Shown in pieces: positions 3,790 through 60,317 of a stretch of 64,000 nucleotides of DNA. A program made the translations under genes and the position numbers. The number at the start of each line of letters is the position of its first letter. Within the stretch, counting starts at the first letter, position 1. Source of the stretch: Eubacteriales bacterium (GTDB lineage: Bacteria; Bacillota; Clostridia; Oscillospirales; CAG-272); assembly GCA_045649925.1 (NCBI GenBank), contig JAZRQS010000040.1, positions 1,499 to 65,498 on the forward strand, given 5' to 3'. The notes beneath the pieces are model-generated. The model made no database searches. It had not been told where the DNA came from and saw only the letters and a program-made list of their open reading frames with translations.

Positions 3790-4020
3790 AGTATGATATG
3801 CGATGAAGCGAGAGGTTGCCGTCATTATGGCGGGTAATTTTCGCAGAGTATGTCCGATTAACCGGGCGACAGCAAATTTTGCTTGTGTAAGACAAGCAAT
3901 AACTGTGTCATTTCCCGGATGGCTTGGCGACAAGCGATCCGGTTTTTGCTTGGACGTTGAAGAAACGCCCGACACAGTGTGCACCTTTGGTCCTCGGAAA
4001 TTTTAAAGGAGGAAAACAAA
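3790..4020 (+). ncRNA. Structured 5' leader of rpsJ (probable clostridial S10 r-leader)
   Basis: About 230-nt untranslated region with several hairpins between the promoter and the rpsJ RBS; position typical of r-protein leaders. Confidence 0.5.
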
Positions 4021-38313: not shown

Positions 38314-40599
38314 ATGTCAAGAGATCTCTTTAACAAGAAGAAAGGGAGAACAATATTATACACGATATGCACGTTTGTTTTGCTTTGTGTGATGTTTGCT
38401 TCGCTTGCTACATATCTGTATAGAGACGCCGAAAACAGAGCGATGGAAAATCTGCACGTGCAGACAAAGCAGATAAAGGACGACCTCACTCTGCAGATGC
38501 TGTCCGACCGTGAAAATTTGTCGACAATGGCTAGCTTTGCATCAAAGCTCTATCTTGACGGAGAGGACTACAGCCTTTTGTTCGAGTCCTTCAAGCCTAT
38601 TGGTCTTATCGACAATATAGGTATTCTCAATACCGACAATACGTTTGTAACCAAGGTGGGCAGGACAGAGCTCAAGGATATTTCCTTTGAAGACGAGCTT
38701 GCACTTGGTTCATATGTTTCAGGTCGTGTGAGAGATATTACAAACGTCAACTACGAGCGCGTAAGAATTTCCGTCCCGATAGTAGCAAACGGAGAAACTG
38801 TCGGTATCTTGTACGGAATTATCAAGCTCGACAGCATTGAGCAGAGATATATCGGAATAGCGACAGAGCTTGACGCTCAGCTTTTCATTTACGATATGGC
38901 GGGCGACCTTATAGTCGACTCGATACATAAAGAGCCCGGCAACATCTCATTTTTGCGTGATCGTAAATATAACGGCGACTACTCCTACGAGGAGTTTGCG
39001 ACATCGGAAAAGGGCTTTACCTCCTTCCAGTCCGCATACAGAGACGAGGACGTGCTTATGCACTATTCCACCCTTGAGGATCTCGACTGGAAAATCGCCC
39101 TTGTAAGATACGACTCGCAGGTGTATGCCGAAACCCATACCCTTACCTTGATATTCTTCATAGTAATTGCGATAATAGTGCTCGCTATGGGTGTTTTCAC
39201 TACCGCCCTTACACGAGTAGAGCGCAAGGAAAGCAATGTAATTGACTGCGCATCAAATATCCGAAAGATGCTCATTGAGGCATCGGGAAATAATAGCAAC
39301 ATTACCGAGGCGCTGAAGGAGGTTGCCGCATTTACAAGGTCAAGGTCGGCCATCTTCTTTGACACAAACGGAGAGGACTATCACTACAGCTCGAAGGACG
39401 CTGACGGAGTGAATTTGTCAGGTGAGCAGAGCACAGTCTTGAAGGCAGAGCTCTTGCGCTATGTTTCCACCCTTACTGCGCACGACACAGGCACTATCAA
39501 GCCTATCAGTCTGCGACAGGACAGCCGTCTTGAAAAGACCGCACCCTCCGTTTATGCGATGCTGAAGGATTGTGGCATAGACGAGATAATTTTCTTGGCT
39601 ACGATAAACCACTCAAATCACATCACTATTCTTGCCGTAATAAACCCTGAACGCAGAGCAGACGCATCTTACCTTGCCGAAAAGGTTTCTGCCTGCTTCA
39701 CTATCGCACTCGACAATAGCAATATACTCAACAAGACACGACTTGCCGCAACGACGGACTCGCTCACGGGCACTCTGAATCGTGTGGCATATAACAATGA
39801 TCTGCATATCATAAATGAGGAAAGACCATTTGACTTTTCCTGCATTTACGTCGATGTAAACGAGCTCCACAACCATAACAACAAATATGGTCACGCCGAG
39901 GGCGATAAAATGCTTTTGTATATCGCTCACACACTAAAGGACGTGTTCTTCGGTCAGCGAGTTTACCGAATGGGCGGAGACGAGTTTTTGGTATTCTGCC
40001 GTAATCTCGGACAGGAGGATATAAACAAGTCGATAGACATCTTCCTTGCTCAGCTCGACCAGTGTGGCTACCACGTGGCGATAGGTATTTCCTTCAGAAG
40101 CCAGAACACCAACACCGAGGAAATGGTGCGAGAGGCTGAAGTCAGAATGTACGAGATCAAGGCAAAGTATTATCAGGACAAAGAGCAAAGGATAAAGAAC
40201 TCCTCCGAAAACGAATATGTTCAGGTAAAGACGGGTATTCCCGAAATTGACGCTATGCTTTCCATACTCAAGGAGAGCTACAACGGCATATACAGGGTTT
40301 CTCTCGACACCGACAGCGCACATCGAGTGCTTATGCCGGCATATCTGAACTACAATGAAACCGAGGACAACTTCTCACGCCTGTTTGCAAACTATGTGGC
40401 AGACTCGGCGGAGTCGGACTACCACAGAGCTCTGCTCAGCTTCCAGAATTACGAAGCACTCAGACAACAGCTTGCAGACGGCAAGACACCGAGAATAACG
40501 TACAAAAAGCTGAATGGCGAGATGGTGACCTTAAGCGTTCACCGACTCAGCGACACGGATTCCGTATCGGAAACTTTGTGGATTTTTGCAAAAAAATAA
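38314..40599 (+). CDS. Membrane sensor diguanylate cyclase (TM-Cache-like-TM-GAF-like-GGDEF-C-terminal domain)
   Basis: Two TM helices flank an extracytoplasmic domain; TDSLTGTLNR, YVD, NNKYGHAEGD, intact RMGGDEF. Confidence 0.9.
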   Translation: MSRDLFNKKKGRTILYTICTFVLLCVMFASLATYLYRDAENRAMENLHVQTKQIKDDLTLQMLSDRENLSTMASFASKLYLDGEDYSLLFESFKPIGLIDNIGILNTDNTFVTKVGRTELKDISFEDELALGSYVSGRVRDITNVNYERVRISVPIVANGETVGILYGIIKLDSIEQRYIGIATELDAQLFIYDMAGDLIVDSIHKEPGNISFLRDRKYNGDYSYEEFATSEKGFTSFQSAYRDEDVLMHYSTLEDLDWKIALVRYDSQVYAETHTLTLIFFIVIAIIVLAMGVFTTALTRVERKESNVIDCASNIRKMLIEASGNNSNITEALKEVAAFTRSRSAIFFDTNGEDYHYSSKDADGVNLSGEQSTVLKAELLRYVSTLTAHDTGTIKPISLRQDSRLEKTAPSVYAMLKDCGIDEIIFLATINHSNHITILAVINPERRADASYLAEKVSACFTIALDNSNILNKTRLAATTDSLTGTLNRVAYNNDLHIINEERPFDFSCIYVDVNELHNHNNKYGHAEGDKMLLYIAHTLKDVFFGQRVYRMGGDEFLVFCRNLGQEDINKSIDIFLAQLDQCGYHVAIGISFRSQNTNTEEMVREAEVRMYEIKAKYYQDKEQRIKNSSENEYVQVKTGIPEIDAMLSILKESYNGIYRVSLDTDSAHRVLMPAYLNYNETEDNFSRLFANYVADSAESDYHRALLSFQNYEALRQQLADGKTPRITYKKLNGEMVTLSVHRLSDTDSVSETLWIFAKK

Positions 40600-40611: not shown

Positions 40612-40640
40612 TTGACAAGACCGGGTCATTGTGATAGAAT
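40612..40640 (+). promoter_or_regulatory. SigmaA promoter of the polysaccharide operon
   Basis: TTGACA-17-TAGAAT with extended TG. Confidence 0.85.
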
Positions 40641-40654
40641 ACGTACTGTATTTT

Positions 40655-40737
40655 ATATTGAGCAAAATCGGTGAAAGCCGATGACGCAAAGCAAAGAGGC
40701 TAAGGTTTTTTACTATGCCAGTCCAGCTGCAATGATA
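40655..40737 (+). ncRNA. GEMM-I / c-di-GMP-I class riboswitch aptamer (A20 variant)
   Basis: GAGCAAA-ATCGGT-GAAA-GCCGAT-GACGCAAAGC...GCTAA...ATGC...CAGCTGC matches the GEMM-I consensus (GNRA tetraloop, tetraloop receptor, C44/A47/C92 equivalents). Confidence 0.92.
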
Positions 40738-40782
40738 CGAGGTCTTCGTGTGGCCTTTTGTTGTTGCAGCTTTTTGTTTTTT
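40725..40782 (+). terminator. Riboswitch expression-platform terminator
   Basis: AGCTGCAA (40725-32) pairs with TTGCAGCT (40764-71), extended by G-U pairs and an inner hairpin, followed by TTTTGTTTTTT. Confidence 0.8.
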
Positions 40783-40852
40783 GTACAGCTTTTGTGGCTG
40801 CACACGACATTCCCTCCAAACCATACCTACGATTTGAAAGGAACGTACAGAA

Positions 40853-41776
40853 ATGAATTTCAACATATACACATGGATCCTTCTCGCCTGCTGTCTTGCT
40901 TTGGCGACAGCGGTGGTGCTTCTCTCCGTAATGCTGAAGAAGAGCAGGGACAGGGCACGACGAGCACTTGAAGCAGAGGAGCTTTACAATTTACACAACA
41001 GCGATGCTGCATTGCTTGAAGAAATTGAAGCCGGACTTAAAAACGGCGAATTCAAAATGTATCTGCAGTTCATCGTTGACAACAAGACAAAGCGCATTAC
41101 GTCAGCTGAGGCGTTGTCAAGATGGGAAAGGCCCGACGGCGAGCTTATCTTCCCTGGCAAATACATTCCCGCAATGGAAAGAGCAGGCGTCATCACAAAG
41201 CTTGACTATTACATGTTTGAGCGCGCGTGCGAGAAGCTCTCGCAATGGGCGGACACAGAATTCGGAGAGCTCTCCATATCCTGCAACTTCACGAGATGCA
41301 CGATATCGGAGGATGACTTCGTTTCAAAGCTCAACGATATTGCAGACCATTACTCCTTTGACAAGAGCAAGCTCATTGTTGAGATAACCGAGGACTCTAT
41401 TGAAAAGAATCTCGACGTCGCTATCAAGAACATTCTGCGTGCAAAGGAGCTCGGCTTCAGCATTGCCCTCGACGATATAGGTAGCGGATACACCTCGCTT
41501 GTAAATCTTTGCGAGTATCCTATCGACATAGTAAAGCTCGACCGAGAGATACTGCTTATGACAAATGCCGAGCGTGGCAAAAAGCTGTTCTACGGCATAG
41601 TTTCACTTTCTCACTATCTCAACCTCAAGGTCGTCTGCGAGGGCGTGGAAACTGATGAGCAAAACAATCTCGTCAGCGAAAGCGAGTGTGATTTCGTGCA
41701 GGGCTGGTACTACTCAAAGGGACTTCCCGAGGATAAGGCGGAGGACTTTGCAAGGGAATACACGAGAGGGCTTTGA
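40853..41776 (+). CDS. Membrane-anchored EAL phosphodiesterase
   Basis: N-terminal TM; EALSRW, SCNF, VEITE, LDDIGSGY, VKLD, CEGVE, FVQG. Confidence 0.92.
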   Translation: MNFNIYTWILLACCLALATAVVLLSVMLKKSRDRARRALEAEELYNLHNSDAALLEEIEAGLKNGEFKMYLQFIVDNKTKRITSAEALSRWERPDGELIFPGKYIPAMERAGVITKLDYYMFERACEKLSQWADTEFGELSISCNFTRCTISEDDFVSKLNDIADHYSFDKSKLIVEITEDSIEKNLDVAIKNILRAKELGFSIALDDIGSGYTSLVNLCEYPIDIVKLDREILLMTNAERGKKLFYGIVSLSHYLNLKVVCEGVETDEQNNLVSESECDFVQGWYYSKGLPEDKAEDFAREYTRGL

Positions 41777-41803: not shown

Positions 41804-42346
41804 ATGAACAAGGTTTTTAAAAAGGATTTATACAGGTTTTACGGCGAGGAGGGCGAGTCACTTGCCAAGAGAATGCTCCGCCCCCCAGAGCTTCGCTACA
41901 TAGCGCTCTTCAGACGAGCAAATGGGTGCAAATTCCTGCCCTTGAAGCTCTACTACACAGTCGCTCTCAAGCTTATGTCCTACAGGACAGCGATACAGAT
42001 ACCTGTCCGCACCGAGATAGGAGAGGGATTTTACATCGGTCATAGTGGCAGAGTTATTATAAATCCCGATGCCAAGCTCGGCAAGAATATGAATATCAGC
42101 ACAGGCGTAGTCATCGGGTGCGAAAACCGAGGAAAGCGCAAGGGCGCTCCCACCTTTGACGGAAACTGCTGGATAGGCGCAAATGCGGTGGTAGTAGGAA
42201 ATATTCATATAGGTGAGGACGTGCTTATCGCCCCCCTGTCATTCGTAAACACCGACGTCCCCCCGCACAGCGTGGTCGTCGGAAATCCCGCAAAAATCAT
42301 ATCAAAGGAAAACGCAACACAGGATTATATCTGCAACAAGGTCTGA
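41804..42346 (+). CDS. Serine-acetyltransferase-like LbH O-acetyltransferase (WcaB-type)
   Basis: EIGEGFYIGH, WIGANAVVVG, VVGNPAK; lacks the CysE N-terminal domain. Confidence 0.85.
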   Translation: MNKVFKKDLYRFYGEEGESLAKRMLRPPELRYIALFRRANGCKFLPLKLYYTVALKLMSYRTAIQIPVRTEIGEGFYIGHSGRVIINPDAKLGKNMNISTGVVIGCENRGKRKGAPTFDGNCWIGANAVVVGNIHIGEDVLIAPLSFVNTDVPPHSVVVGNPAKIISKENATQDYICNKV

Positions 42347-42370
42347 TAGAGCTACAAGGAGGACAGCGAA

Positions 42371-43870
42371 ATGTCAACAAAAGATAACAGAATAAAATAT
42401 AATTTGCTGTCCGGCTTTGCCTATCAGGTCATTCTTATCGCTATAGGCTTCCTTTTGCCCCGACTGTATCTTGAAAACTTCGGCTCGGAGGTAAACGGAG
42501 TTCTTTCCACCATAAAGCAAATATTCGTGTATATGACCTTGCTGGAGGCAGGTATAGGACTTGCCACCATGCAGGCGTTGTATAAGCCTGTCGCAGAGGG
42601 TGATCACGGAAGATCCAGTGCTATCCTCTCGGCGACCAACATTTTTTATATCAAGACGGGTGTCATCTATTCGGCGATCGTAATTTTACTTGCGGTCGTC
42701 TATGCCTTTTTTGTACCCACGAGCATACCCACCCTTGAGCTGTTTACTATCATTATTCTGACGGCTCTGCCTAACCTGTTCAGCTATTTCATTCAGGCGA
42801 AATACCGAGTTCTTCTCGAGGTAGACGGCAGAAAATACATAATTACAAATTCAGAGACTGTGCTCCAGCTTCTTGCCAATGTCGGCAAGATAGTCGTGCT
42901 TTTGCTCACCGACAGTCTCGTGCTTATCCAGCTTGTCTACTGCTTGCTCGCTCTCGCTCAGCTTGGATATGTATATATTCAGGCGAAGCACAGATACAAG
43001 TGGCTGTCGCTCAAGGCTGAGCCCGACTTTGAGGCGATATCTCAGAGAAAGTCGGTGCTCGTGCATCAGATTTCGGGCATGGTGTTCAACAACACAGACA
43101 TTCTGCTCCTTTCCTTCCTGTGCGACTTCAAGGTGGTAAGCGTCTACACTATCTACAACGTCTTTTTCTCGCAGGTGCAGATGTTTATAACGAGCATTAC
43201 CTCGGGCATCAGCTTTGCACTCGGTCAGTTGTTCCACACAAATAGGGAAAAATTTATGAAGGTCTACGATGTCTACGAGACATTTTACATAATGGCGACC
43301 TTCGTTATCTATACACTTATGGCGGTGTTCCTTCTGCCTCTTATTCAGATATACACGCAGGGCATAGATGACGCCAACTACACAAACGTGTATCTTGTGC
43401 TCCTGTTCGTTTTAATGAACCTTTTGTCAAACGGCAAGCTCCCCTCAAACCACGTGCTTGAATATTCCGGCAAGTTTGAGGAAACGCGCTCCCATGCAGT
43501 TATCGAGATGGCTATTAACATAGTAGTTTCCGTTGTGGCAATTCTTTTGTGGGGCATATGCGGAGCAATAGTCGGAACTATCGTTGCGCTTCTGTACAGA
43601 GGCACTATGATGATATATTATGCAAACAAGCGTGTGCTTTCCTGCTCTATGTTCCGTACCTACAAGCTGTGGCTTGTAAACGGCGCAGTCTTCGCTTTGG
43701 TAATGGCTATCTTCTTTGTCGATAGCTTTGCAGGGCTCTCGTTTGGCGCACTCGTCTTGAAGGGAATTGTCCACGCTCTTTGGATAGTGCCCACATATAT
43801 TCTGGTGAACTTCATTTTCTGCCGTCAGGCGTTTAAAAACATTTTCGAGTTAAGGGGGATAAAGAAATGA
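42371..43870 (+). CDS. wzx: Wzx flippase (polysaccharide biosynthesis transporter)
   Basis: About 13-14 TM; LPRLYLENFGSEVNG, LEAGIG, ALYKP. Confidence 0.85.
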   Translation: MSTKDNRIKYNLLSGFAYQVILIAIGFLLPRLYLENFGSEVNGVLSTIKQIFVYMTLLEAGIGLATMQALYKPVAEGDHGRSSAILSATNIFYIKTGVIYSAIVILLAVVYAFFVPTSIPTLELFTIIILTALPNLFSYFIQAKYRVLLEVDGRKYIITNSETVLQLLANVGKIVVLLLTDSLVLIQLVYCLLALAQLGYVYIQAKHRYKWLSLKAEPDFEAISQRKSVLVHQISGMVFNNTDILLLSFLCDFKVVSVYTIYNVFFSQVQMFITSITSGISFALGQLFHTNREKFMKVYDVYETFYIMATFVIYTLMAVFLLPLIQIYTQGIDDANYTNVYLVLLFVLMNLLSNGKLPSNHVLEYSGKFEETRSHAVIEMAINIVVSVVAILLWGICGAIVGTIVALLYRGTMMIYYANKRVLSCSMFRTYKLWLVNGAVFALVMAIFFVDSFAGLSFGALVLKGIVHALWIVPTYILVNFIFCRQAFKNIFELRGIKK

Positions 43871-44601
43871 GCATTCCAAAGGTGATACACTACTGCTGGT
43901 TTGGTCACGGAAAAATGCCCGCAATAGCCGAAAAATGTATAAAGAGCTGGAAGAAATACTGCCCCGACTATGAAATTATCTGCTGGAATGAAGAAAACTT
44001 CGACATTATGCAAAGCCGATACATGAGAGAGGCGTATGAGGCAGGGAAGTGGGCGTTTGTCAGCGATTTCGCAAGACTGAAGATTATATACGACCACGGC
44101 GGAATATATCTCGACACCGACGTTGAGCTTATCAAGTCGCTTGACCCTTTGCTCGACTATGACGGCTTTATGGGCTTTGACGAGAAGGGCATCGTTGCCA
44201 CAGGTCTTGGCTTTGGCGCAGAGGCAGGGAATGAGATAATAGCCTCGCTTCTGGAGGACTACGAGGATTTGCCGTTTGTTTTGGAGGATGGTAGCTTCGA
44301 CACCACCCCTTGTCCCGACAGAAATACGAGCGCATTAAAGCGTATCGGTATGGACACCGAAAACACCGACCAGATATTCAGGGGAATGAAATTCTTGCCA
44401 CAGGATTACCTTTGCCCGATGGATTTTTACACAGGCGTAAAGACGATTACGAAAAACACTTATTCCATTCACCACTACTGCGCATCTTGGACCTCCGATG
44501 TTACAAAGAGGACCACACGTATCAAGCGCATTATAGGAGTGAAGATGTATAATAAGCTTTATGGCAAGTTTTTGCACAAATTTAAGGGGTTGGAGTGGTA
44601 A
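43867..44601 (+). CDS. GT32 (DXD, Och1-like) glycosyltransferase
   Basis: IPKVIHYCWFG, SDFARL, GGIYLDTDVE, HHYCASW. Confidence 0.92.
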   Translation: MSIPKVIHYCWFGHGKMPAIAEKCIKSWKKYCPDYEIICWNEENFDIMQSRYMREAYEAGKWAFVSDFARLKIIYDHGGIYLDTDVELIKSLDPLLDYDGFMGFDEKGIVATGLGFGAEAGNEIIASLLEDYEDLPFVLEDGSFDTTPCPDRNTSALKRIGMDTENTDQIFRGMKFLPQDYLCPMDFYTGVKTITKNTYSIHHYCASWTSDVTKRTTRIKRIIGVKMYNKLYGKFLHKFKGLEW

Positions 44602-44602
44602 T

Positions 44603-46150
44603 ATGCCGGAAACATTGTTCATAAAAATGAAAGAGAATATAAAGCCTCAATGGAAGGTGTGCTTTATCTTTTCATTGATTGTCGGGCTTATCACTCATAT
44701 GTACAAGCTCACAAGCTGGCTACCAAACTGGGATTCGCTCGTCTTCCGTTATGACGGACAGAATATGCTGGCGATAGGCAGATGGTTTTTGCCTGTGGTG
44801 TGCGCCCCCTCGTCGTTTTATGATTTGCCGTGGGTGGCAGGGTTGCTCGCACTTCTGCTTCACGCACTTGGCGCAGTATGTATATGCAGAATGTTTTCAG
44901 TCGAGAAAAGCACGACATCGGCGCTTATCGGTGCGACAGTTATAGCATTCCCGACAGTAACGTCGGTTTTGACATACAACTATGTCGCTGACGGCTATGC
45001 ATTCGCATTTTTGCTCTCCTGCCTTGCAGGTATGCTCCTTGTGGAGAAAAAACCGAGATATATCGCCTCTGCTATCTGTATCACGCTTTCTGCAGGCATC
45101 TATCAGGCATATGTGACTGTCACTGTTATGCTCTTGCTTTGCTACTTGATTACAGAGGGCATCAGGAAGGATACAAGGGTAATTACACTTGTAAAGAAAA
45201 CTTTACAATTTCTTGCGACAGGAATTGTCGGCATGGTGCTTTACTATGTGATAATGAGGCTCGCTCTCAAGCTCACACATACAGAGCTTTTAGAGTATCA
45301 GGGCATAAGCGGAGCGCTTTCGCTTTCGCTTTCGAGCATGAATATTTTCGCCTCGCTTTATACTGTAAAGACCTCCTTTGTGGAGTATTTCTTCGATTTT
45401 TCAAACGGCGCTTCAGTTTTTTCAGTATTGAACTGTGTTATATTGGTGCTTACTGTTGTGTTGTATATTTTCGATATAGTAAAAAACAGGACAAGCCTCC
45501 CCAAGCTTTTGATTATCGCTTTTTGCACGATTATGCTCCCCATAGGTGCGAGCGTGCTTGCATTTATAAACAGCGACGTCGACTATCACAACCTGATGAA
45601 AATGGGATTTGTCGTCTTTTATCTGTTTTTGATATTGCAGTATGAAAAGCAGGACTTCAAGAGCGAGAGGCTGAACGCCATAAAGGCGTGGGGAATACTC
45701 GCAGTCGTTTTTGTGCTTGTGTTCAACTATGTTATAATTGCCAATGTCAGCTACCACAAGCTGAATATGGCGTATGAAAAGTCATACGGAGTGCTTGTGC
45801 GCATTGCAGACCGCATAGAGCAGACAGAGGGCGCATCAGAGTGTGAGAGAATTCTCGTTGTCGGCGCACTCGATAACAGCGAGCCGTATAGTGTAAATCT
45901 TCCCCCCGATATGACGGGCACCACCGACGGCTTTATACTGAGAGCTGACGATGAGGTAGTGGGACAGAGTGTTTTGTGTAGCGCATTGAATGATTACTGT
46001 GGAACTGACTACACGTTTGTATATGGTGACGAAAAGACTGCGCTTGTCGAAAGGGCGGACGAGATGGGCATGGGGCTTTGGCCTGCTTCTGATTCTGTCG
46101 CTGTCATAGACGGAGTTATCGTCATTTATCTCGGAATGGAGGGCCGTTGA
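44603..46150 (+). CDS. GT-C fold membrane glycosyltransferase (GtrII / Glucos_trans_II-like)
   Basis: About 10 TM; NWD...IGRWF loop, IYQAY, C-terminal extracellular domain. Confidence 0.75.
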   Translation: MPETLFIKMKENIKPQWKVCFIFSLIVGLITHMYKLTSWLPNWDSLVFRYDGQNMLAIGRWFLPVVCAPSSFYDLPWVAGLLALLLHALGAVCICRMFSVEKSTTSALIGATVIAFPTVTSVLTYNYVADGYAFAFLLSCLAGMLLVEKKPRYIASAICITLSAGIYQAYVTVTVMLLLCYLITEGIRKDTRVITLVKKTLQFLATGIVGMVLYYVIMRLALKLTHTELLEYQGISGALSLSLSSMNIFASLYTVKTSFVEYFFDFSNGASVFSVLNCVILVLTVVLYIFDIVKNRTSLPKLLIIAFCTIMLPIGASVLAFINSDVDYHNLMKMGFVVFYLFLILQYEKQDFKSERLNAIKAWGILAVVFVLVFNYVIIANVSYHKLNMAYEKSYGVLVRIADRIEQTEGASECERILVVGALDNSEPYSVNLPPDMTGTTDGFILRADDEVVGQSVLCSALNDYCGTDYTFVYGDEKTALVERADEMGMGLWPASDSVAVIDGVIVIYLGMEGR

Positions 46151-47058
46151 TGGTATATTATTGTGCCGATGATTACGGCATTTCCAAGGAATACAACAGA
46201 TGTATAGAGCAATGCCTTAGGGAAGGCATACTCAACAAGGTCAGCGTGTTGCCAAACGGAGAGATAGAGGACTTTGTGGAAAAGCTCAACTGCAAGGAGG
46301 GCGTTATGCTGACCCTGCATCTCAATATAGTGGAGGGCTATCCCTTGTCACCTAAAGAGGATATAGATTTGCTCGTTGACGAAAACGGGTGCTTCAAGTG
46401 TTCGTTTGTGGGACTGTTTTTGAAAGGATTTTCACCCAAGCGCAAGGAGTATGAGAAGCAGATGTATAAAGAAATACGAAATCAGCTTCGCTTCTGGGTG
46501 GAAAAAACGGGCGACAGATGCATTTCCGTCGACTGCCATCAGCACGCCTACGAGATACCATGGATATTCAAGACTTTGATGCAGGTCATTCGTGACGAAA
46601 AGCTTGACGTAAGGTATCTGCGAATCCCCGCGGAGCCTATTCGTGCCTACCTTCGTGTGCCGTCACTCTACAAGGCTTATAGCGTGACAGGGCTGATAAA
46701 GCAATGCCTTTTGAAGACACTCGCATTTATAAATCGCAGATACTTACGCGATATGGATTTCACATCTGCGCACTTTATGGGAGTTATGCTGTCGGGAAAA
46801 TTAAACCGAGAGCGTGTAGATAAGCTTTTGGGATATTACCTCTACCTTTCAGAGAAGAACAAGAGAAACATAGAGGTCGCATTCCACCCCGGCTATGCGC
46901 AACATGACCTTGAGCTTATTTCGGGTAGCAGAGAGGATTTCAAAAAGTTCTATTGCTCACCTTGGCGAAACCTTGAATATGAGGCTCTTATGAACAGCTC
47001 GCCTCAAAACGATATAAAAACGACAGAGAAGAAAGGGAACGAAAATGCCATATCTTGA
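46147..47058 (+). CDS. YdjC/ChbG/HpnK-family deacetylase
   Basis: ADDYG, LHLNI, DCHQH, FHPG. Confidence 0.88.
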   Translation: MMVYYCADDYGISKEYNRCIEQCLREGILNKVSVLPNGEIEDFVEKLNCKEGVMLTLHLNIVEGYPLSPKEDIDLLVDENGCFKCSFVGLFLKGFSPKRKEYEKQMYKEIRNQLRFWVEKTGDRCISVDCHQHAYEIPWIFKTLMQVIRDEKLDVRYLRIPAEPIRAYLRVPSLYKAYSVTGLIKQCLLKTLAFINRRYLRDMDFTSAHFMGVMLSGKLNRERVDKLLGYYLYLSEKNKRNIEVAFHPGYAQHDLELISGSREDFKKFYCSPWRNLEYEALMNSSPQNDIKTTEKKGNENAIS

Positions 47059-47725
47059 AAAAGAAAAAGTCGATGAAAAAACAAGAAAAAAGCTGGAGGC
47101 GCTGATAGAAAAATCATACTCCGGCTACTGGAAGAAAAAGCGCCTTTTCGACATATTTTTTGCTACGATAATTCTGCTCGGATTTCTTCCGCTGATGGCA
47201 ATTATCGCCCTCGTTATCGTCATTGACGATCCGAGCGCAGGCCCGTTTTTCAAGCAAAAGCGTGTCGGTCGTCACGGCAAGGAGTTCTATATGTATAAAT
47301 TCCGTACGATGCGACCGGATGCGGAGCAGCTCCTCGATCAGCTCAAGGATCAGAACGAGATGGAGGGCCCTGTATTCAAGATTAAGCACGATCCGAGAAT
47401 TACGAGAGTGGGAAAAATCCTTCGTAAGCTCTCGCTTGACGAGCTTATGCAGTTCTTCAACGTGTTCAAGGGAGATATGACACTTGTAGGTCCTCGCCCC
47501 CCGCTTCCTCGTGAGGTCGAGTACTACACCGACTACCAGAAGCTCCGTCTGCACGTCACCCCCGGAATTACCTGCACATGGCAGATTTCCAAAAACAGAA
47601 ACGACATTCCCTTCGAGGACTGGGTTGAGATGGACCTCGACTACATACAAAACAGAACCTTCCCCGGCGACATTCTCATCATGCTCAAGACACCCATCGT
47701 AATGCTGAGCGCTACCGGAAGATAA
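47045..47725 (+). CDS. Priming phosphoglycosyltransferase (Bac_transf)
   Basis: KRLFDI, FYMYKFRTM, DPRITRVG, SLDEL, LVGPRP, PGITCTWQ. Confidence 0.95.
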   Translation: MPYLEKEKVDEKTRKKLEALIEKSYSGYWKKKRLFDIFFATIILLGFLPLMAIIALVIVIDDPSAGPFFKQKRVGRHGKEFYMYKFRTMRPDAEQLLDQLKDQNEMEGPVFKIKHDPRITRVGKILRKLSLDELMQFFNVFKGDMTLVGPRPPLPREVEYYTDYQKLRLHVTPGITCTWQISKNRNDIPFEDWVEMDLDYIQNRTFPGDILIMLKTPIVMLSATGR

Positions 47726-47758
47726 ACTTGCCATATTGGATTAGATTGGAGAAAAGAA

Positions 47759-49867
47759 ATGAAAATTGCTATGATAGGACACAAGGTTGTCCCGTCAAGA
47801 CGTGGTGGAATTGAAAATGTTTTGACTACCCTGTGTCCCTTGCTCTCGGAAATGGGTGCAGGTGTTGTCTGCTACAACCGCACCTCCGATGAAATAGAAG
47901 CCGATTATCTCGGAATGGTGGACAACAATCAGTATAAGGGTGTTACCTTGAAAAAGGCGTGGACTATAAAGTCGAGAGGAATTTCGGCTATGATAGCCTC
48001 CTTTACTGCCGCTATCCGTGCCGCATTCGGAAAATACGACGTCGTACATTTTCACGCCGAGGGGCCCTGCGCGGCTATGTGGATACCCAGAATGTTTGGA
48101 AAGAGATGCGTTGCGACTGTTCACGGACTTGACTGGCAGAGAGAAAAGTGGGGCAAGAGCTTCGCCTCCAAATATATCAAGTTTGGCGAGCGTGTGATGG
48201 TAAAGTGCGCAGACGAGATCATCGTATTGAGCGAAAGCGCCCGAGAGTATTTTATGAATACTTATAATCGTGAAACCACACTTATTCACAACGGAATTGA
48301 ACGCCCTGAAAAGAAGTCAGCCGAGGAGATTACCGAGCTCTACGGACTTGAAAAGGACGGATATATCTGCACTGTGTCGCGACTTACTGCAGAAAAGGGC
48401 ATACACTATCTCATCGACGCCTACAACAATATAAAGACGGACAAGAAGCTCGTTATCGCAGGCGACACGAGTGACACCGACGAATATGTAGCCTCCTTGA
48501 AGGAAAAGGCAGGCGACAACCCGAATATAATCTTCACAGGATTTATTTCAGGCGCACCTCTTAGGGAGCTTTACAGCAACGCATATGTGGTTGCCGTACC
48601 CTCCGACATTGAGGGAATGTCGCTCAGTCTGCTGGAGGCGCTCGCATATGGAAACGCTGTGCTCAGCTCTGACATTCCCGAAAACACCTTGGTCACCGAG
48701 GACAGAGCGATGCACTTCGAAAAGGGCAACGTGTCTGACCTCACAGAAAAGCTTCAGCTCCTTTGCGACGACGAGGACCTCGTTAACTCGATGCGTGACG
48801 GCGTTGACGAATTTATTCTCGAAAAGTATAACTGGAATGATGTTGCAGACAGCACCTATCGTCTGTATCACTCATTGATAAAGCGCATAAAGCGTGGACT
48901 CTTTGCAAAGATAAGAGGCACAAAGGCAGAGCAGAGACTGAAGACTGCTTTCCTCTCTGTCGTTACTGCACTCTTTGTCGTTGTCGCCCTGTCAATTGCC
49001 GTTATCGGCTTCAGCCATCTTGGAAACCGAAATTTCACAGAGACGTTTTATAGCGTCAGCAGTCTAAAGGTCAACAACAAGATAAGAGTAATACAAATCT
49101 CCGACCTGCATGGTTGCACCTACGGAGAAGAAAACAGCGACCTTGTCAGCAGAGTAGAAAAGCTCTCGCCCGATATTATTTTGCTCACAGGCGACACTAT
49201 CGGTGACGATGCTTCTATTGACGAGGTAGTCGGGCTCTGCGCTTCTCTTGCGCAAATCGCCCCCTCCTATTACATATACGGAAACAACGAACTGGAAAAG
49301 TATTACCCCACGCTTCTTACACAGGAGGCGCTTGACAGCCATTTCGGCTTCACCGATGAAAACCGAGATGCCACTCAGCTTCTCGCTATGACCGACACCC
49401 TTGAAGAAATGCTTGAGGCAGTCGGCGTTACAGTGCTCAAAAACGAGAGCGCTACCCTGACAGTAGGCAAGACGCCCGTAGATATTTACGGCGTGCTTAC
49501 GTCAAACCCGTCTGCATTCTGGTCGTATGGCGGAGAGAGCTTCAGCGACTTTCTCTATGTAGACGAGACACACCTGAAGATAACTGCTATCCACGAGCCT
49601 CTGGTATTTGAGGAATTCTCACCTGACTTCTGGGGCGACGTTATGCTTGCCGGTCACACCCACGGAGGCGTGGTAAGAGTGCCTGTGCTTGGCGCACTTT
49701 ACACCCACGAGGGCGGGCTCCTTCCCGCACGAGCAGGACACTATGTCTACGGCAGATACGAGGTGGAGGGCAGACCTCTCATAGTTTCCTCAGGTCTTGA
49801 AAACAAAAACATTTTCAGAATCAACAACGAGCCTGAAATAGTCGTTGTTGACATCAACAAATTCTGA
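47759..49867 (+). CDS. GT4 glycosyltransferase fused through a TM helix to a calcineurin-like metallophosphoesterase
   Basis: N-terminal GGIE, PSDIEGMSLSLLEA; TM near aa 400-420; C-terminal SDLH, TGD, GNNE, HEP, GHTHGG. Confidence 0.88.
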   Translation: MKIAMIGHKVVPSRRGGIENVLTTLCPLLSEMGAGVVCYNRTSDEIEADYLGMVDNNQYKGVTLKKAWTIKSRGISAMIASFTAAIRAAFGKYDVVHFHAEGPCAAMWIPRMFGKRCVATVHGLDWQREKWGKSFASKYIKFGERVMVKCADEIIVLSESAREYFMNTYNRETTLIHNGIERPEKKSAEEITELYGLEKDGYICTVSRLTAEKGIHYLIDAYNNIKTDKKLVIAGDTSDTDEYVASLKEKAGDNPNIIFTGFISGAPLRELYSNAYVVAVPSDIEGMSLSLLEALAYGNAVLSSDIPENTLVTEDRAMHFEKGNVSDLTEKLQLLCDDEDLVNSMRDGVDEFILEKYNWNDVADSTYRLYHSLIKRIKRGLFAKIRGTKAEQRLKTAFLSVVTALFVVVALSIAVIGFSHLGNRNFTETFYSVSSLKVNNKIRVIQISDLHGCTYGEENSDLVSRVEKLSPDIILLTGDTIGDDASIDEVVGLCASLAQIAPSYYIYGNNELEKYYPTLLTQEALDSHFGFTDENRDATQLLAMTDTLEEMLEAVGVTVLKNESATLTVGKTPVDIYGVLTSNPSAFWSYGGESFSDFLYVDETHLKITAIHEPLVFEEFSPDFWGDVMLAGHTHGGVVRVPVLGALYTHEGGLLPARAGHYVYGRYEVEGRPLIVSSGLENKNIFRINNEPEIVVVDINKF

Positions 49868-49887
49868 TAGAAAGGAGTGTTCTTCGT

Positions 49888-51246
49888 ATGCTTTCTTCAA
49901 TTTTGCAGAAAATCCCATTGCTCGTTGTCGGCTTGCTTTTGCTTATCGCAGTAATAACGATATACATTCGCTCCAAGCGTGTGACAAAGAGCGAGTCGTT
50001 CAAAATATTCAAGAGCGTAAAGCCACTTACTGTATGGGTATTGGTGTTTACCATAGTGCTTACGGGCGTGTTTGCAGTATTCAACCACGTGAAATCAAAG
50101 CAGTATATGATGGCTGTGGTGGCGCTGAACTATTCCGAGGCGTCCCAAGCGCAGAATACAAACGGCACGAGATTCAATATGACGGAAATCATCTGTGACG
50201 AGGTTATCGAAAGAGCCATCAAGCTCGGCGCATTTGAGGATGTCACAGTAGAGGAGCTTCGTGAGTGTCTTTCTGTCTATCCCTATGTTCAGGGTGATGT
50301 AAACGATGAGTCGAATTATCACATCTCTACTGAATTTGTCGTAGAATACTTCGCATCAAAGGATACAGCCCACCTCGATTCTGAAAATGTCATTATGCTT
50401 ATCACAAGCGCATATAAGGACTATTACATAGAGAAATATACAGACAATTTCAGCCTTACAGGCGACTCGGAAAAGCCCGATTATTCAAAGATGGAGTATA
50501 TGGACGTAGTAGCGTATTTCAGCAAGGAGGCGACCTCCGTGCTCAACTATATGTACGGCATGGCAGAAAAGGCCCCCAGCTTCGTCACCTCGGGCAACAT
50601 TTCCTTCAGCTCCATTGCAGGTAAGATATATCAGTTTAAAGAGACACAGATAGAGCAGAATCTGAGATCCCTTATTTTGCAGTATGGTCTTGTAAGAGAA
50701 GAGCAGACCTACCTTGAAAGACTTAACTACCAGAACCAGAACATAGACTTTACAAAGCAGAAAAATGTCGCTTCGTTTAATATTTGCAACGAGACTGTCG
50801 GTATGTACTCCGACGATATGACTCGTGTAGTTCTCGTCCCCACGAGAGACGCCGAGGGCAAGTATTATATGAGCAGGACAAAGGTCGGCATTGACGAGAT
50901 CTCCGTCTTGGCTACTACATTCAGCGACGCCATCGCAGAGAATGAAAAGGAGCTTATGAGCAACAGCCTCATTATTGAGAAGATACAGAATTCAAGCAAC
51001 ACAGCTCAGTACGCTTTACAGGCAGACGCTCTCATTCTTGCGATAGACAAGACGCTAGACGCCCTGACAGTAGAGGCGATAACGGCAGGTCGAGAGTATT
51101 CTGACTACAAGATGAATCAGTGTATTGCAGTCAGCATTTCTGACGGGTCACTGTTCAACGAGCTGAAAATGATAGTCGCGTTTGCCGTCATTGCCTACGT
51201 TTCGGCGATGGCATACGAGCTGTCAAGAAAATACCCGAAAGTATAA
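49888..51246 (+). CDS. Wzz/CpsC-like polysaccharide co-polymerase (extra N-terminal TM)
   Basis: TM-TM-large helical extracellular domain-TM; NY...NGTRFNMTEI motif shared with the next gene. Confidence 0.6.
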   Translation: MLSSILQKIPLLVVGLLLLIAVITIYIRSKRVTKSESFKIFKSVKPLTVWVLVFTIVLTGVFAVFNHVKSKQYMMAVVALNYSEASQAQNTNGTRFNMTEIICDEVIERAIKLGAFEDVTVEELRECLSVYPYVQGDVNDESNYHISTEFVVEYFASKDTAHLDSENVIMLITSAYKDYYIEKYTDNFSLTGDSEKPDYSKMEYMDVVAYFSKEATSVLNYMYGMAEKAPSFVTSGNISFSSIAGKIYQFKETQIEQNLRSLILQYGLVREEQTYLERLNYQNQNIDFTKQKNVASFNICNETVGMYSDDMTRVVLVPTRDAEGKYYMSRTKVGIDEISVLATTFSDAIAENEKELMSNSLIIEKIQNSSNTAQYALQADALILAIDKTLDALTVEAITAGREYSDYKMNQCIAVSISDGSLFNELKMIVAFAVIAYVSAMAYELSRKYPKV

Positions 51247-51266
51247 CGCGGACATAGGAGGTAAAA

Positions 51267-53162
51267 ATGAAAAGCTTACAATTCATGAGATATCTGAAAA
51301 AGATTCTCCCGTTCATTATCATTGTCTGCGTTTTGGCGACCTTCGTCATCAACTACAAGCTCAAGGGCTCAAATACCTATGTTGCATCTGAGATTATTCA
51401 CTACAATGACACTCAGACAGAGCTTGGAATTACACCTACAGGCGAAAAGTTTGATGTAAATGAGATAAAGTCATCTGCCGTTGTTTCCAAGGTGGTAAAC
51501 AAGCTCGGACTTACAGGCACATATTCGGTGGATAGCCTTATTTCAAGAATTTCGATAACCGCCATTCCCGACGAGGACAAGCTCGCTCAAAAGGAAGCCA
51601 AGCTCAAGGAGGGCGAGTCCTACATATATGAGCCAAGCACGTATGTAGTATCCTTTACTGCTACGAATAGCGAGGGCGCTGTATTTGCGAGGACTATTCT
51701 CGACGAGGTGCTTGACGTCTATTTTGCAGAATACAGTCAGAAATATGTAAATGTAGCTCCTGCGCAGAATATAATCGATAATATCGAAAACGGAAATTAC
51801 GATTATATCGAAATGGTGGAGCTGATAGACACAGGTATAAACGAGACCTTGAACACTCTCTATCAGAGAATGTCGCAAAATCTCTACTACAGAGGAACAA
51901 AGACAGGCGTTTCCTTCAACGACCTTGCAGACGAGTTCAATTACTTGAGACAGGTTACACTCTCAGGACTGTTTGCAAAGATATACAACTATCAGGTCAC
52001 AAAGGATAAGACCGTCCTTATTTCCGACTATAAGACAAGAATTGACAACAATAATATACAAGCGGCGACAGAGGAGAATATCGTAAACAACACACTCGCC
52101 ATCATCGACGCCTACGTCGACAAGATGAGAGAGTCGGGAAATACGAATATTTCCTCCGAGTACATTCTCGACAGCGTGCACGACAGTAGCGTCGATGGCG
52201 CGGGAAATCCCACAAATGCGGGCGACCAGACAGTTACATATGATGCGCTCCTCTATAGCTGGAGAGAGCACAGCGAGGCAAAGGAGTATCTTCTTATAGA
52301 TACCGCATACTCGCAGTATGTTATAGACGTGTTCACAGAGTGCACAGGTGCATGTAATAACGGCGAATGCCGTACCTCACCTCTTACCTGTACAGAGCTC
52401 AGCAATGCTGACTACGCTACAGTCAGGGGCGAGATAGAGGCTGATATAAAGACGCTTGTTGATGACTTGGCAGAGCTCTATGTTTTGACGAGAGCTACAA
52501 ACGATGAGTACAACTACTATCTCGGCGCAAGCTACATTTCGGTGCTTTCCTCTGCTTCTGTCAAGGAGAGCGTAAACGTAAATCTCTACACATTCATTGC
52601 ATTTTTCTTCCTCATATTCGTATGCTGTGGAGGCGCTATTATTCTCGGCAGACTTGGCGATGTAGTTCATTATGTATTCTACACCGACCATATCACCGAG
52701 TTCAACAACCGCGCATTCTTCGACAAGCTCCTCTCGTCTATGGATAAGAAGATACTTGACGACGGAACTGTTTACTGTACTGTCGATATAGCAAATCTGG
52801 CTGGCATAAACGCCACCTGCTCACGTGAGACAGGCGACGGCATTATCAAGATGTTTGCTAAATACTTGAAGGAAACATACGGAAAGTCGAATGCCGAATT
52901 TATCTACAACGGAAACGGTAGCTTCGTAATTCTTTCAAAGCACACAGACTATATTTCTATCGAGGATATACTTCGCCTGTTTGCATTGAAGCTGGAGGAG
53001 AGAGAAGAGTATCGCAACATTGCAATAGAGTTCAGCGTGGGTATTGCCGAGACCTTTGAGGGCAAGCAGACGGCGAGAAGGCTTCTCGCAGAGGCTATAA
53101 AGAGCAAAAAGACATACGTGTCCGGCGCTGATACAGAAAACAAAGAAAACGAAGAAAACTAA
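51267..53162 (+). CDS. Wzz-like co-polymerase with a C-terminal degenerate GGDEF domain
   Basis: TM-extracellular-TM, then TDHITEFNNR, VDIANLAGIN, TGD, YNGNGSF (in place of RxGGDEF), FSVGIA. Confidence 0.75.
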   Translation: MKSLQFMRYLKKILPFIIIVCVLATFVINYKLKGSNTYVASEIIHYNDTQTELGITPTGEKFDVNEIKSSAVVSKVVNKLGLTGTYSVDSLISRISITAIPDEDKLAQKEAKLKEGESYIYEPSTYVVSFTATNSEGAVFARTILDEVLDVYFAEYSQKYVNVAPAQNIIDNIENGNYDYIEMVELIDTGINETLNTLYQRMSQNLYYRGTKTGVSFNDLADEFNYLRQVTLSGLFAKIYNYQVTKDKTVLISDYKTRIDNNNIQAATEENIVNNTLAIIDAYVDKMRESGNTNISSEYILDSVHDSSVDGAGNPTNAGDQTVTYDALLYSWREHSEAKEYLLIDTAYSQYVIDVFTECTGACNNGECRTSPLTCTELSNADYATVRGEIEADIKTLVDDLAELYVLTRATNDEYNYYLGASYISVLSSASVKESVNVNLYTFIAFFFLIFVCCGGAIILGRLGDVVHYVFYTDHITEFNNRAFFDKLLSSMDKKILDDGTVYCTVDIANLAGINATCSRETGDGIIKMFAKYLKETYGKSNAEFIYNGNGSFVILSKHTDYISIEDILRLFALKLEEREEYRNIAIEFSVGIAETFEGKQTARRLLAEAIKSKKTYVSGADTENKENEEN

Positions 53163-53200
53163 AACGAAAAAACAAAGCTAAAGGAAAGGGGGCAAATGAG

Positions 53201-55719: not shown

Positions 55720-55724
55720 ATCTA

Positions 55725-56780: not shown

Positions 56781-56791
56781 GAGATAAGAGT

Positions 56792-58893: not shown

Positions 58894-58909
58894 TACAGGA
58901 GCATAGAGC

Positions 58910-60289: not shown

Positions 60290-60317
60290 AAGCGCATAAA
60301 AGCGATAAGGGGGAGAA

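What the first reader, a model, noticed from the sequence alone, without database searches (positions are those of the whole stretch)
40655..40737. GEMM-I riboswitch with A20, the c-AMP-GMP-type specificity base
Seen: the aptamer aligns without gaps to Vibrio Vc2 across positions 19-51. G21-C22-A23-25 fall at 40662-66, the GAAA loop at 40673-76 and G42ACGCAAAGC follows, so position 20 is 40661 = A, not G. The C92 equivalent (40730) is kept. Known: G20 reads the second guanine of c-di-GMP; A20 with C92 defines the 3',3'-cGAMP-sensing GEMM-Ib riboswitches of Geobacter, and an A20 aptamer from Clostridium beijerinckii is reported to bind both ligands. Inference: this operon may respond to cGAMP or to both dinucleotides, which would be unusual for surface-polysaccharide control in a clostridium.
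Basis: partly seen in the sequence, partly recalled or inferred. Interest (0 to 1): 0.85.

Follow-up and report, generated by a model that had tools for sequence, protein, structure and literature searches.

The report
A20-variant c-di-GMP ON riboswitch
A genuine c-di-GMP-class riboswitch in an uncultured ruminant-gut Clostridia genome does carry the adenine that can allow cGAMP binding, but in 100 orthologous copies that base flips between A and G, so it most likely still reads ordinary c-di-GMP to switch on a phosphodiesterase and a surface-polysaccharide gene cluster.

Summary
Rfam c-di-GMP-I (RF01051) matches window 40651-40734 at 60.4 bits. The unpaired column just 5' of G21-C22 (Vc2 G20) is A at 40661, and the C92 column is C at 40730. 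Metagenome contigs from two runs support the A.

The cGAMP inference is not supported as physiology. I found 100 orthologues of this riboswitch in gut Clostridia MAGs. They share the promoter, the pocket and the terminator. Position 20 is A in 71 and G in 30 (window included), and never a pyrimidine. It needs at least 18 A/G changes on a tree of 84 loci, against 21.3 for shuffled labels. One pair is identical over 140 nt except for this base. G20 aptamers reject cGAMP, and A20 aptamers still bind c-di-GMP (C. beijerinckii Cbe 1-2: 30 nM against 463 nM for cGAMP). The ligand both alleles share is therefore c-di-GMP.

The context agrees. An Asp-type (canonical) GGDEF cyclase lies upstream and an intact EAL phosphodiesterase is the first gene downstream. 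The genome has no CD-NTase (SMODS) match and no Ser/Thr Hypr GGDEF.

The terminator overlaps the aptamer's 3' strand and C92, which makes this an ON switch. It is an ordinary new member of a known variant.

The parts
38314..40599 (+). Upstream sensor diguanylate cyclase (dCache + GGDEF, motif RMGGDEF). It has Asp at the PleD D344 guanine-reading site (GHAEGDKML), so it is canonical and not Hypr.
   Evidence: Pfam GGDEF 62 bits and dCache_1. Motif read. The same gene with Asp lies upstream of 85 of 101 orthologous riboswitches.
40612..40640 (+). Sigma-70-type promoter TTGACA-17-TAGAAT with an extended -10 TG. The implied transcript start is near 40647.
   Evidence: 11 of 12 matches. Conserved in orthologues L004 and L011.
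40651..40734 (+). c-di-GMP-I (GEMM-I) aptamer.
   Evidence: RF01051, 60.4 bits, E 2.5e-9. It is the only GEMM-I hit in the 1.55 Mb genome. The P1b stem covaries across 96 unique orthologues.
40661..40661 (+). Position 20 (Vc2 numbering) is A. This is the base that reads the alpha purine of the ligand.
   Evidence: CM column 11. Orthologues: 71 A and 30 G, no pyrimidine. Contigs of runs X1 and X2 show A; a strain in X3 shows G.
40673..40676 (+). GAAA tetraloop of P1b. Its 11-nt-type receptor halves are CUAAG (40700-40704) and UAUG (40714-40717) in P2.
   Evidence: Sequence and CM alignment. Assigning the halves as tetraloop and receptor rests on established knowledge of the Vc2 structure.
40688..40688 (+). 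A47 equivalent, the adenine that intercalates between the two ligand bases.
   Evidence: GACGCAAAGC at 40683-40692 aligned to the model consensus. Invariant in the orthologues.
40730..40730 (+). C92 equivalent, which Watson-Crick pairs with the beta guanine of the ligand. It also pairs with G40766 in the terminator.
   Evidence: CM column 83. It pairs with G in the terminator in 94 of 96 orthologues.
40725..40783 (+). Intrinsic terminator. The 5' arm is 40725-40737 (AGCUGCAAUGAUA), the inner hairpin 40739-40757, the 3' arm 40759-40771, and the U-tract 40772-40783. The 5' arm is the aptamer's P2 3' strand plus C92 plus the P1 3' strand, so aptamer and terminator are mutually exclusive.
   Evidence: MFE fold z = -3.6. 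Conserved in L004 and L011 with compensatory changes in the inner hairpin. Present in 97 of 98 orthologues.
40853..41776 (+). First regulated gene: a single-pass membrane EAL phosphodiesterase with all catalytic motifs present (EALxR, N, EITE, DDIG, KLD, EGVE, QG).
   Evidence: Pfam EAL 206 bits. Motifs read from the translation. An EAL gene is also the first gene in 49 of 88 orthologous loci that have a readable downstream gene.
41804..61319 (+). Co-directional Wzx/Wzy-type polysaccharide cluster. In order: hexapeptide acyltransferase, flippase-like protein, DXD glycosyltransferase, GtrII, YdjC, Bac_transf priming transferase, GT4-metallophosphoesterase, membrane protein with a degenerate GGDEF (51267-53162), Wzy_C, GT4, GT2 genes, a second EAL protein (58910-60289), and Acyl_transf_3.
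   Evidence: Pfam scans and ORF layout. That the whole cluster is one transcript is inferred, not shown.

Best explanation
This is a transcriptional ON riboswitch of the c-di-GMP-I (GEMM-I) class, and its physiological ligand is c-di-GMP. Transcription starts at the TTGACA/TAGAAT promoter. Without ligand, the 3' end of the aptamer (P2 3' strand, C92 and P1 3' strand, 40725-40737) pairs with 40759-40771. That forms a long terminator hairpin followed by a U-tract, and transcription stops before the EAL gene. When c-di-GMP binds, C92 pairs with one guanine, A20 (protonated, as shown for other A20 aptamers) reads the Hoogsteen edge of the other, and A47 intercalates. The 3' strand is then held in the aptamer, the terminator cannot form, and RNA polymerase reads into the EAL phosphodiesterase and the polysaccharide cluster. 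The c-di-GMP is probably made by the adjacent Asp-type dCache-GGDEF cyclase. The result is an output (surface polysaccharide) with built-in negative feedback (the phosphodiesterase).

The A at position 20 is a common purine polymorphism of this riboswitch lineage that is close to neutral or tunes affinity. It is not a switch to cGAMP signalling. The RNA may bind 3',3'-cGAMP in vitro as a side property.

Shown here: family membership, the pocket bases, the overlap of aptamer and terminator, the gene context and the A/G toggling. Inferred: ligand identity in vivo, the ON polarity and the extent of the operon.
For: - RF01051 at 60.4 bits with A at column 11 and C at column 83.
- The terminator shares 40725-40737 with the aptamer. 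It is conserved in 97 of 98 orthologues, and C92 is paired in it in 94 of 96.
- 100 orthologues were recovered from species-representative genomes. Position 20 is 71 A and 30 G (window included), never C or U. At least 18 changes are needed on an 84-locus tree, against 21.3 +/- 1.6 for shuffled labels. L080 and L099 are identical over 140 nt except at position 20. A strain in run X3 has G at 40661.
- Wild-type G20 Vc2 discriminates against cGAMP, whereas G20A and natural A20 aptamers bind c-di-GMP through a protonated adenine. Cbe 1-2 has KD 30 nM for c-di-GMP and 463 nM for cGAMP (PMC6140456).
- The synteny Asp-GGDEF, riboswitch, EAL is kept in both the G20 (L004) and A20 (L011) forms, and an Asp-type GGDEF lies upstream in 85 of 101 loci.
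- The genome has no SMODS match. It has three GGDEF domains: one Asp, one Asn and one degenerate, none Ser/Thr. It has two EAL genes, both in this cluster.
Against: - No binding or expression data exist for this RNA.
- A20 is the necessary pocket change for cGAMP recognition, and A20 aptamers generally gain cGAMP affinity (PMC9481103), so dual response in vivo cannot be excluded.
- The genome is about 95% complete, so a cGAMP synthase could lie in the missing part.
- One GGDEF (contig C29) has Asn at the guanine-reading site, and its product specificity is unknown.
- The toggling argument assumes the orthologues keep one function.
- The P1 3' strand is more constrained in A20 than in G20 forms. 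This hints that the two alleles are not fully equivalent.
Confidence: 0.8

Rival explanations
1. A physiologically bispecific sensor. The A20 allele lets the operon respond both to the cell's own c-di-GMP and to 3',3'-cGAMP, for example from a promiscuous cyclase or a defence-system cyclase. The A/G polymorphism then decides which strains have that second input.
For: Vc2 G20A, Cbe 1-2 and a Desulfobacca A20 aptamer all bind both ligands (PMC6140456; PMC9481103). One GGDEF of the genome has Asn instead of Asp at the base-reading site.
Against: The genome has no SMODS/CD-NTase match and no Ser/Thr Hypr GGDEF. The Asn/Asp GGDEF family is found in only 13 of 98 genomes that carry the riboswitch, and its residue does not track position 20: A/N 6, A/D 3, G/N 4, G/D 0. 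The first regulated gene is an EAL domain; that EAL domains act on c-di-GMP while the described cGAMP phosphodiesterases are HD-GYP enzymes is recalled from the literature, not checked here.
Confidence: 0.12
2. A dedicated cGAMP riboswitch (true GEMM-Ib), as in Geobacter, controlling the polysaccharide cluster through cGAMP alone.
For: A20 together with C92 is the Geobacter GEMM-Ib pocket signature.
Against: In Geobacter a single A20G change flips specificity to c-di-GMP (PMC6456294). Here A and G alternate at least 18 times among orthologues with the same genes on both sides. No cGAMP synthase signature was found. The flanking enzymes are c-di-GMP enzymes. The only measured clostridial A20 aptamer prefers c-di-GMP.
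Confidence: 0.04
3. The A is not position 20. Either it is an assembly error, or it is a 1-nt insertion 3' of a true G20 (G40660).
For: The same-genus orthologue L004 reads UUG-GC where the window reads UUG-A-GC.
Against: Contigs of two runs carry the A. The family norm AAUAUUU[R]GC places 40661 in the R column, and 70 other orthologues have A there. The CM posterior for this column is maximal.
Confidence: 0.02

Closest known systems
Clostridium beijerinckii Cbe 1-2 aptamer (natural A20 GEMM-I; Nelson 2015, measured in Keller 2018, PMC6140456)
   Same: A natural GEMM-I aptamer from the Clostridia with A20 and C92.
   Different: Cbe 1-2 has been measured: KD 30 nM for c-di-GMP, 463 nM for cGAMP. 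This RNA has not. This one is a single aptamer between a cyclase gene and an EAL gene, with an overlapping terminator.
Vibrio cholerae Vc2 c-di-GMP-I riboswitch and its G20A mutant (PDB 3MUM)
   Same: Same fold and pocket: G21-C46, A47, C92, and a GAAA tetraloop with its receptor. The G20A mutant has the same pocket as this RNA and is bispecific.
   Different: Natural Vc2 has G20 and rejects cGAMP. Positions 17-19 and the P1 helix differ (UUG here).
Geobacter GEMM-Ib cGAMP riboswitches (Gm0970, Gs1761/pgcA)
   Same: GEMM-I fold, A20, C92, and a terminator-based ON switch.
   Different: Gm0970 is about 1600-fold selective for cGAMP (PMC8835794). Geobacter has the Hypr (Ser348) cyclase GacA, and A20G flips specificity (PMC6456294). 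Here A20 and G20 interchange among orthologues, no Hypr or CD-NTase enzyme was found, and the neighbours are c-di-GMP enzymes.
Desulfobacca acetoxidans cluster-3 A20 aptamer (Sherlock 2022, PMC9481103)
   Same: An A20 copy among near-identical G20 relatives. The change improved cGAMP binding while c-di-GMP binding was only slightly weakened.
   Different: Those are paralogous copies within one genome. Here the alternation is between orthologous copies across species.

Membership tests
c-di-GMP-I / GEMM-I riboswitch (Rfam RF01051) | Covariance-model score above the curated gathering threshold over the full model | tested here: met
   60.4 bits against 35, model positions 1-87, E 2.5e-9.
c-di-GMP-I / GEMM-I riboswitch (Rfam RF01051) | Pocket nucleotides G21-C46, A47 and C92, and a GNRA tetraloop with its receptor | tested here: met
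   GC at 40662-63 pairs with GC at 40686-87. A47 is 40688 and C92 is 40730. GAAA is at 40673-76, with CUAAG and UAUG receptor halves.
c-di-GMP-I / GEMM-I riboswitch (Rfam RF01051) | G at position 20 (canonical c-di-GMP-selective pocket) | tested here: not met
   A at 40661. A20 is a known minority state inside the family: 7 of 30 hits in related genomes.
c-di-GMP-I / GEMM-I riboswitch (Rfam RF01051) | An expression platform coupled to the aptamer | tested here: met
   The terminator shares 40725-40737 with the aptamer and is conserved in 97 of 98 orthologues.
GEMM-Ib (3',3'-cGAMP riboswitch) | A20 together with C92 in a GEMM-I fold | tested here: met
GEMM-Ib (3',3'-cGAMP riboswitch) | Selective binding of cGAMP over c-di-GMP | not testable with these tools
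   Needs in-line probing or ITC. The nearest measured analogue, Cbe 1-2, prefers c-di-GMP.
GEMM-Ib (3',3'-cGAMP riboswitch) | A20 maintained by selection among orthologues, as expected if it sets ligand identity | tested here: not met
   71 A and 30 G. At least 18 changes on an 84-locus tree, against 21.3 for shuffled labels. One pair differs only at position 20.
GEMM-Ib (3',3'-cGAMP riboswitch) | A cGAMP synthase in the same genome (Hypr GGDEF with Ser/Thr at PleD D344, or a DncV/CD-NTase) | tested here: not met
   No SMODS match at E <= 0.1. Three GGDEF domains: Asp, Asn and degenerate. The genome is 95% complete and the Asn variant is uncharacterised, so this is a soft negative.

The most novel reading that the evidence does not exclude
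The A/G alternation at position 20 may not be neutral. It could act as a natural affinity or threshold dial: A20 alleles bind c-di-GMP more weakly and gain cGAMP cross-reactivity, so closely related gut strains would set different c-di-GMP thresholds for switching on the phosphodiesterase and polysaccharide cluster, or would open it to a second dinucleotide. A hint in this direction is that the P1 3' strand is almost invariant in A20 forms (56 of 58 AAUGAUA) but variable in G20 forms (11 of 24).
Probability: 0.2. Interest if true: 0.45.

Novelty: new member of a known kind. Interest (0 to 1): 0.22.

Why it matters
For annotation, the result is a caution. A20 in a GEMM-I aptamer, at least in gut Clostridia, should not be read as cGAMP signalling, because in this lineage it is the majority allele of a riboswitch embedded between c-di-GMP-making and c-di-GMP-degrading genes.

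The set of 100 near-identical orthologues that differ at the ligand-reading purine is a ready-made natural mutagenesis series. It could be used to measure how G20 and A20 affect affinity and selectivity in one sequence background.

Biologically, the locus is a compact module: a sensor cyclase, an ON riboswitch, a phosphodiesterase and a polysaccharide cluster. It would give c-di-GMP-induced surface polysaccharide with negative feedback in an uncultured ruminant-gut bacterium.

Tried and rejected
1. Insertion reading (G40660 as G20, with A40661 as an extra base). The same-genus orthologue L004 and the P1 register suggested it. I rejected it once 100 orthologues showed the norm AAUAUUU[R]GC.

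2. Matched specificity change: Asn at the D344 site of a second GGDEF family paired with A20. Homologues of that cyclase split 60 Asn to 56 Asp. However, only 13 of 98 riboswitch genomes carry it, and the residue does not track position 20: A/N 6, A/D 3, G/N 4, G/D 0. Rejected.

3. Association of position 20 with the downstream gene class. EAL loci are 35 A to 14 G and VTC loci are 24 A to 11 G. No association.

4. Other aptamer columns covarying with position 20. Only position 96 in the P1 3' strand stood out by raw count (p = 4e-6). Phylogenetically independent pairs give 2.8 to 0, p about 0.25. Not established.

5. The first alignment of related hits used the wrong strand for half the loci and was redone.

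6. The two 2015 PNAS papers and Ren 2015 are not held in the library. What they found is cited only through papers that are held.

7. My first regular expression for the terminator was too strict, matching 64 of 96. I replaced it with a G-U-tolerant test and an alifold consensus.

Full report
**The observation**

Rfam cmscan of the whole window gives one c-di-GMP-I (RF01051) match, at 40651-40734 on the + strand. It scores 60.4 bits against a gathering score of 35, with E 2.5e-9 and the full model aligned.
- Model column 11 is the last unpaired column before the G21-C22 pairs and is G in the consensus. It aligns to A at 40661.
- G21-C22-A23-25 lie at 40662-66, the GAAA loop at 40673-76, and GACGCAAAGC at 40683-92, which puts A47 at 40688.
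- Model column 83, the C92 equivalent, is C at 40730.

It is the only GEMM-I match in the 1.55 Mb, 53-contig, roughly 95%-complete genome. Logan contigs of two gut-metagenome runs carry A at 40661. A third run contains a strain about 93% identical with G at that base.

**Is 40661 really position 20?**

The closest same-genus orthologue, L004, reads UUG-GC where the window reads UUG-A-GC. The A could therefore have been an insertion after a true G20. A scan of species-representative genomes for the invariant core GACGCAAAGCAAAGAGGCTAAGG returned 100 orthologues. Their 5' side is AAUAUUU[A/G]GCAAAA. The window fits that frame with A in the R column and a U-to-G change at position 19. The insertion reading is rejected.

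**Anatomy and mechanism**

- A strong promoter, TTGACA-17-TAGAAT with an extended -10 TG, lies at 40612-40640.
- Downstream of the aptamer, the MFE fold (z = -3.6) contains a long hairpin. Bases 40725-40737 (AGCUGCAAUGAUA) pair with 40759-40771, an inner hairpin lies between them, and the tract UUUUUGUUUUUU follows.
- The 5' arm of this terminator is the 3' strand of the base of P2 (G40726, C40727, U40728), C92 (40730) and the P1 3' strand. Aptamer and terminator are therefore mutually exclusive.
- Across 96 unique orthologues, RNAalifold recovers the same outer stem, with each pair kept in at least 92 of 96, and C92 paired to G in 94 of 96. P1b shows GC, AU, GU and UA covariation.
- A G-U-tolerant search finds the terminator in 97 of 98 orthologues.

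The design is that of an ON switch: ligand binding holds the shared strand in the aptamer and allows read-through. The polarity is inferred, not measured.

**Gene context**

- Upstream, 38314-40599 encodes a dCache-GGDEF protein. Its motif is RMGGDEF, and it has Asp at the PleD D344 guanine-reading site (GHAEGDKML). The mapping of N335 and D344 comes from PMC7288161 and of GacA N339 and S348 from PMC6456294.
- The first gene downstream, 40853-41776, is a single-pass membrane EAL protein (206 bits) with all catalytic motifs present in the translation.
- A co-directional Wzx/Wzy-type polysaccharide cluster follows, to about 61.3 kb. In order it holds a hexapeptide acyltransferase, a flippase-like protein, a DXD glycosyltransferase, GtrII, YdjC, Bac_transf, a GT4-metallophosphoesterase, a membrane protein with a degenerate GGDEF, Wzy_C, GT4, GT2 genes, a second EAL protein and Acyl_transf_3.
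- Both EAL genes of the genome and two of its three GGDEF domains lie in this window.

**The comparative test**

Among the 100 orthologues plus the window:
- Position 20 is A in 71 and G in 30, and never a pyrimidine.
- An Asp-type GGDEF gene lies upstream in 85 of 101 loci. The rest are mostly cut contigs.
- The first downstream gene is EAL in 49 loci, a 230-aa VTC-domain protein in 35, an HD-GYP-like protein in 2 and something else in 2. Both alleles occur in each of the two large classes.
- On a maximum-likelihood tree of the C-terminal 330 residues of the upstream cyclase (84 loci; 60 A, 24 G), the A/G state needs at least 18 changes. Shuffled labels need 21.3 +/- 1.6.
- L080 (G) and L099 (A) are identical over 140 nt of promoter, aptamer and terminator except at position 20. 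Several other pairs are 96-99% identical and differ there.

Position 20 is thus constrained to be a purine, but it flips between A and G almost as fast as the species diverge, while the rest of the pocket is invariant.

**What this means for the ligand**

From the literature held:
- Wild-type G20 Vc2 discriminates against cGAMP, whereas Vc2 G20A binds both ligands.
- In A20 aptamers the adenine is stably protonated and pairs with the guanine of c-di-GMP.
- The natural A20 aptamer Cbe 1-2 of Clostridium beijerinckii binds c-di-GMP at 30 nM and cGAMP at 463 nM (PMC6140456).
- A Desulfobacca A20 aptamer gains cGAMP affinity with only slight loss for c-di-GMP (PMC9481103).
- In Geobacter, by contrast, Gm0970 is about 1600-fold selective for cGAMP (PMC8835794), and A20G flips it to c-di-GMP (PMC6456294).

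If A20 set ligand identity here, as it does in Geobacter, repeated A/G swaps in front of the same genes would repeatedly rewire the operon to a different messenger. The simpler reading is that both alleles respond to the one ligand both can bind, which is c-di-GMP.

**Search for a cGAMP source**

- There is no SMODS (CD-NTase) match in the genome at E <= 0.1.
- Of the three GGDEF domains, one is the canonical Asp enzyme next to the riboswitch. One is degenerate (NGNGSF). One, on contig C29 (538 aa, dCache-HAMP-GGDEF), has Asn at the D344 site (GHGVGNELI) with an intact GGDEF motif.
- None has the Ser/Thr of Hypr enzymes.
- Among 120 close homologues of the Asn protein, 60 have Asn and 56 have Asp.

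I tested whether Asn goes with A20. Only 13 of 98 riboswitch-bearing genomes have an orthologue at all. The combined table, window included, is A/N 6, A/D 3, G/N 4, G/D 0. There is no matched change. It does not hold in this lineage.

**How unusual is A20?**

In 60 related genomes, 7 of 30 GEMM-I hits have A at this column. It is the majority allele of this orthologous group. The scan's own notebook holds 110 such notes from at least 89 genomes. It is a common known variant.

**Residual doubts**

- No binding data exist for this RNA, and in-vitro bispecificity is likely.
- The product of the Asn-type cyclase is unknown.
- The genome is incomplete.
- The P1 3' strand is AAUGAUA in 56 of 58 A20 forms but in only 11 of 24 G20 forms. 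This could mean that the weaker-binding allele tolerates less change in the switching helix. Phylogenetically independent pairs give only 2.8 to 0 (p about 0.25), so this is a hint and not a finding.

**Verdict**

The cGAMP interpretation is only partly supported: in-vitro dual binding is plausible, physiological cGAMP control is unlikely. The element is a c-di-GMP-I ON riboswitch with the known A20 variant, placed between a diguanylate cyclase and a phosphodiesterase at the head of a polysaccharide cluster in an uncultured ruminant-gut member of the Clostridia. The orthologues' record titles read Clostridia, Eubacteriales, Acutalibacteraceae and Oscillospiraceae MAGs. It is a new member of a known kind and of low interest. 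The one useful by-product is a natural A20/G20 series in a single sequence background.

Noticed in passing
G000 contig C29:996-2612 (outside the window): A dCache-HAMP-GGDEF protein (538 aa) has an intact RIGGDEF motif but Asn in place of the guanine-reading Asp (PleD D344 site; GHGVGNELI). Among 120 close homologues, 60 have Asn and 56 have Asp. The product specificity of Asn-type GGDEFs is not described in the papers I could read.
   Followed up: partly
window 51267-53162: A membrane protein inside the polysaccharide cluster ends in a degenerate GGDEF domain (NGNGSF in place of GGDEF; Pfam 39 bits). It may be a c-di-GMP receptor or regulator rather than a cyclase.
   Followed up: no
window 58910-60289: A second EAL-domain protein (459 aa, 203 bits) lies near the end of the same cluster. 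Both EAL genes of the genome therefore lie in this one locus.
   Followed up: no
loci L036, L039, L040, L045 and about 30 others: In 35 of 101 orthologous loci the same riboswitch precedes a 230-aa VTC-domain (CYTH-like, PF09359) protein instead of the EAL gene. In two loci (L054, L108) it precedes an HD-GYP-like protein of about 925 aa. A link between c-di-GMP and a VTC-domain protein is not something I know to be described.
   Followed up: partly
window 40731-40737 and the orthologues: The P1 3' strand, which is also the terminator 5' arm, is AAUGAUA in 56 of 58 A20 forms but in only 11 of 24 G20 forms. Raw Fisher p is 4e-6 for position 96, but phylogenetically independent pairs give 2.8 to 0 (p about 0.25).
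   Followed up: partly
window 40661, run X3: A gut metagenome holds a strain about 93% identical whose contig has G at 40661. It also has a 1-nt deletion near 40739 and other differences. The A/G polymorphism is therefore visible at strain level too.
   Followed up: partly
window 3794-3869: S10-Clostridia ribosomal-protein leader (RF03136, 47.4 bits).
   Followed up: no
window 47759-49867: A single 702-aa ORF fuses a GT4 glycosyltransferase to a calcineurin-like metallophosphoesterase domain.
   Followed up: no
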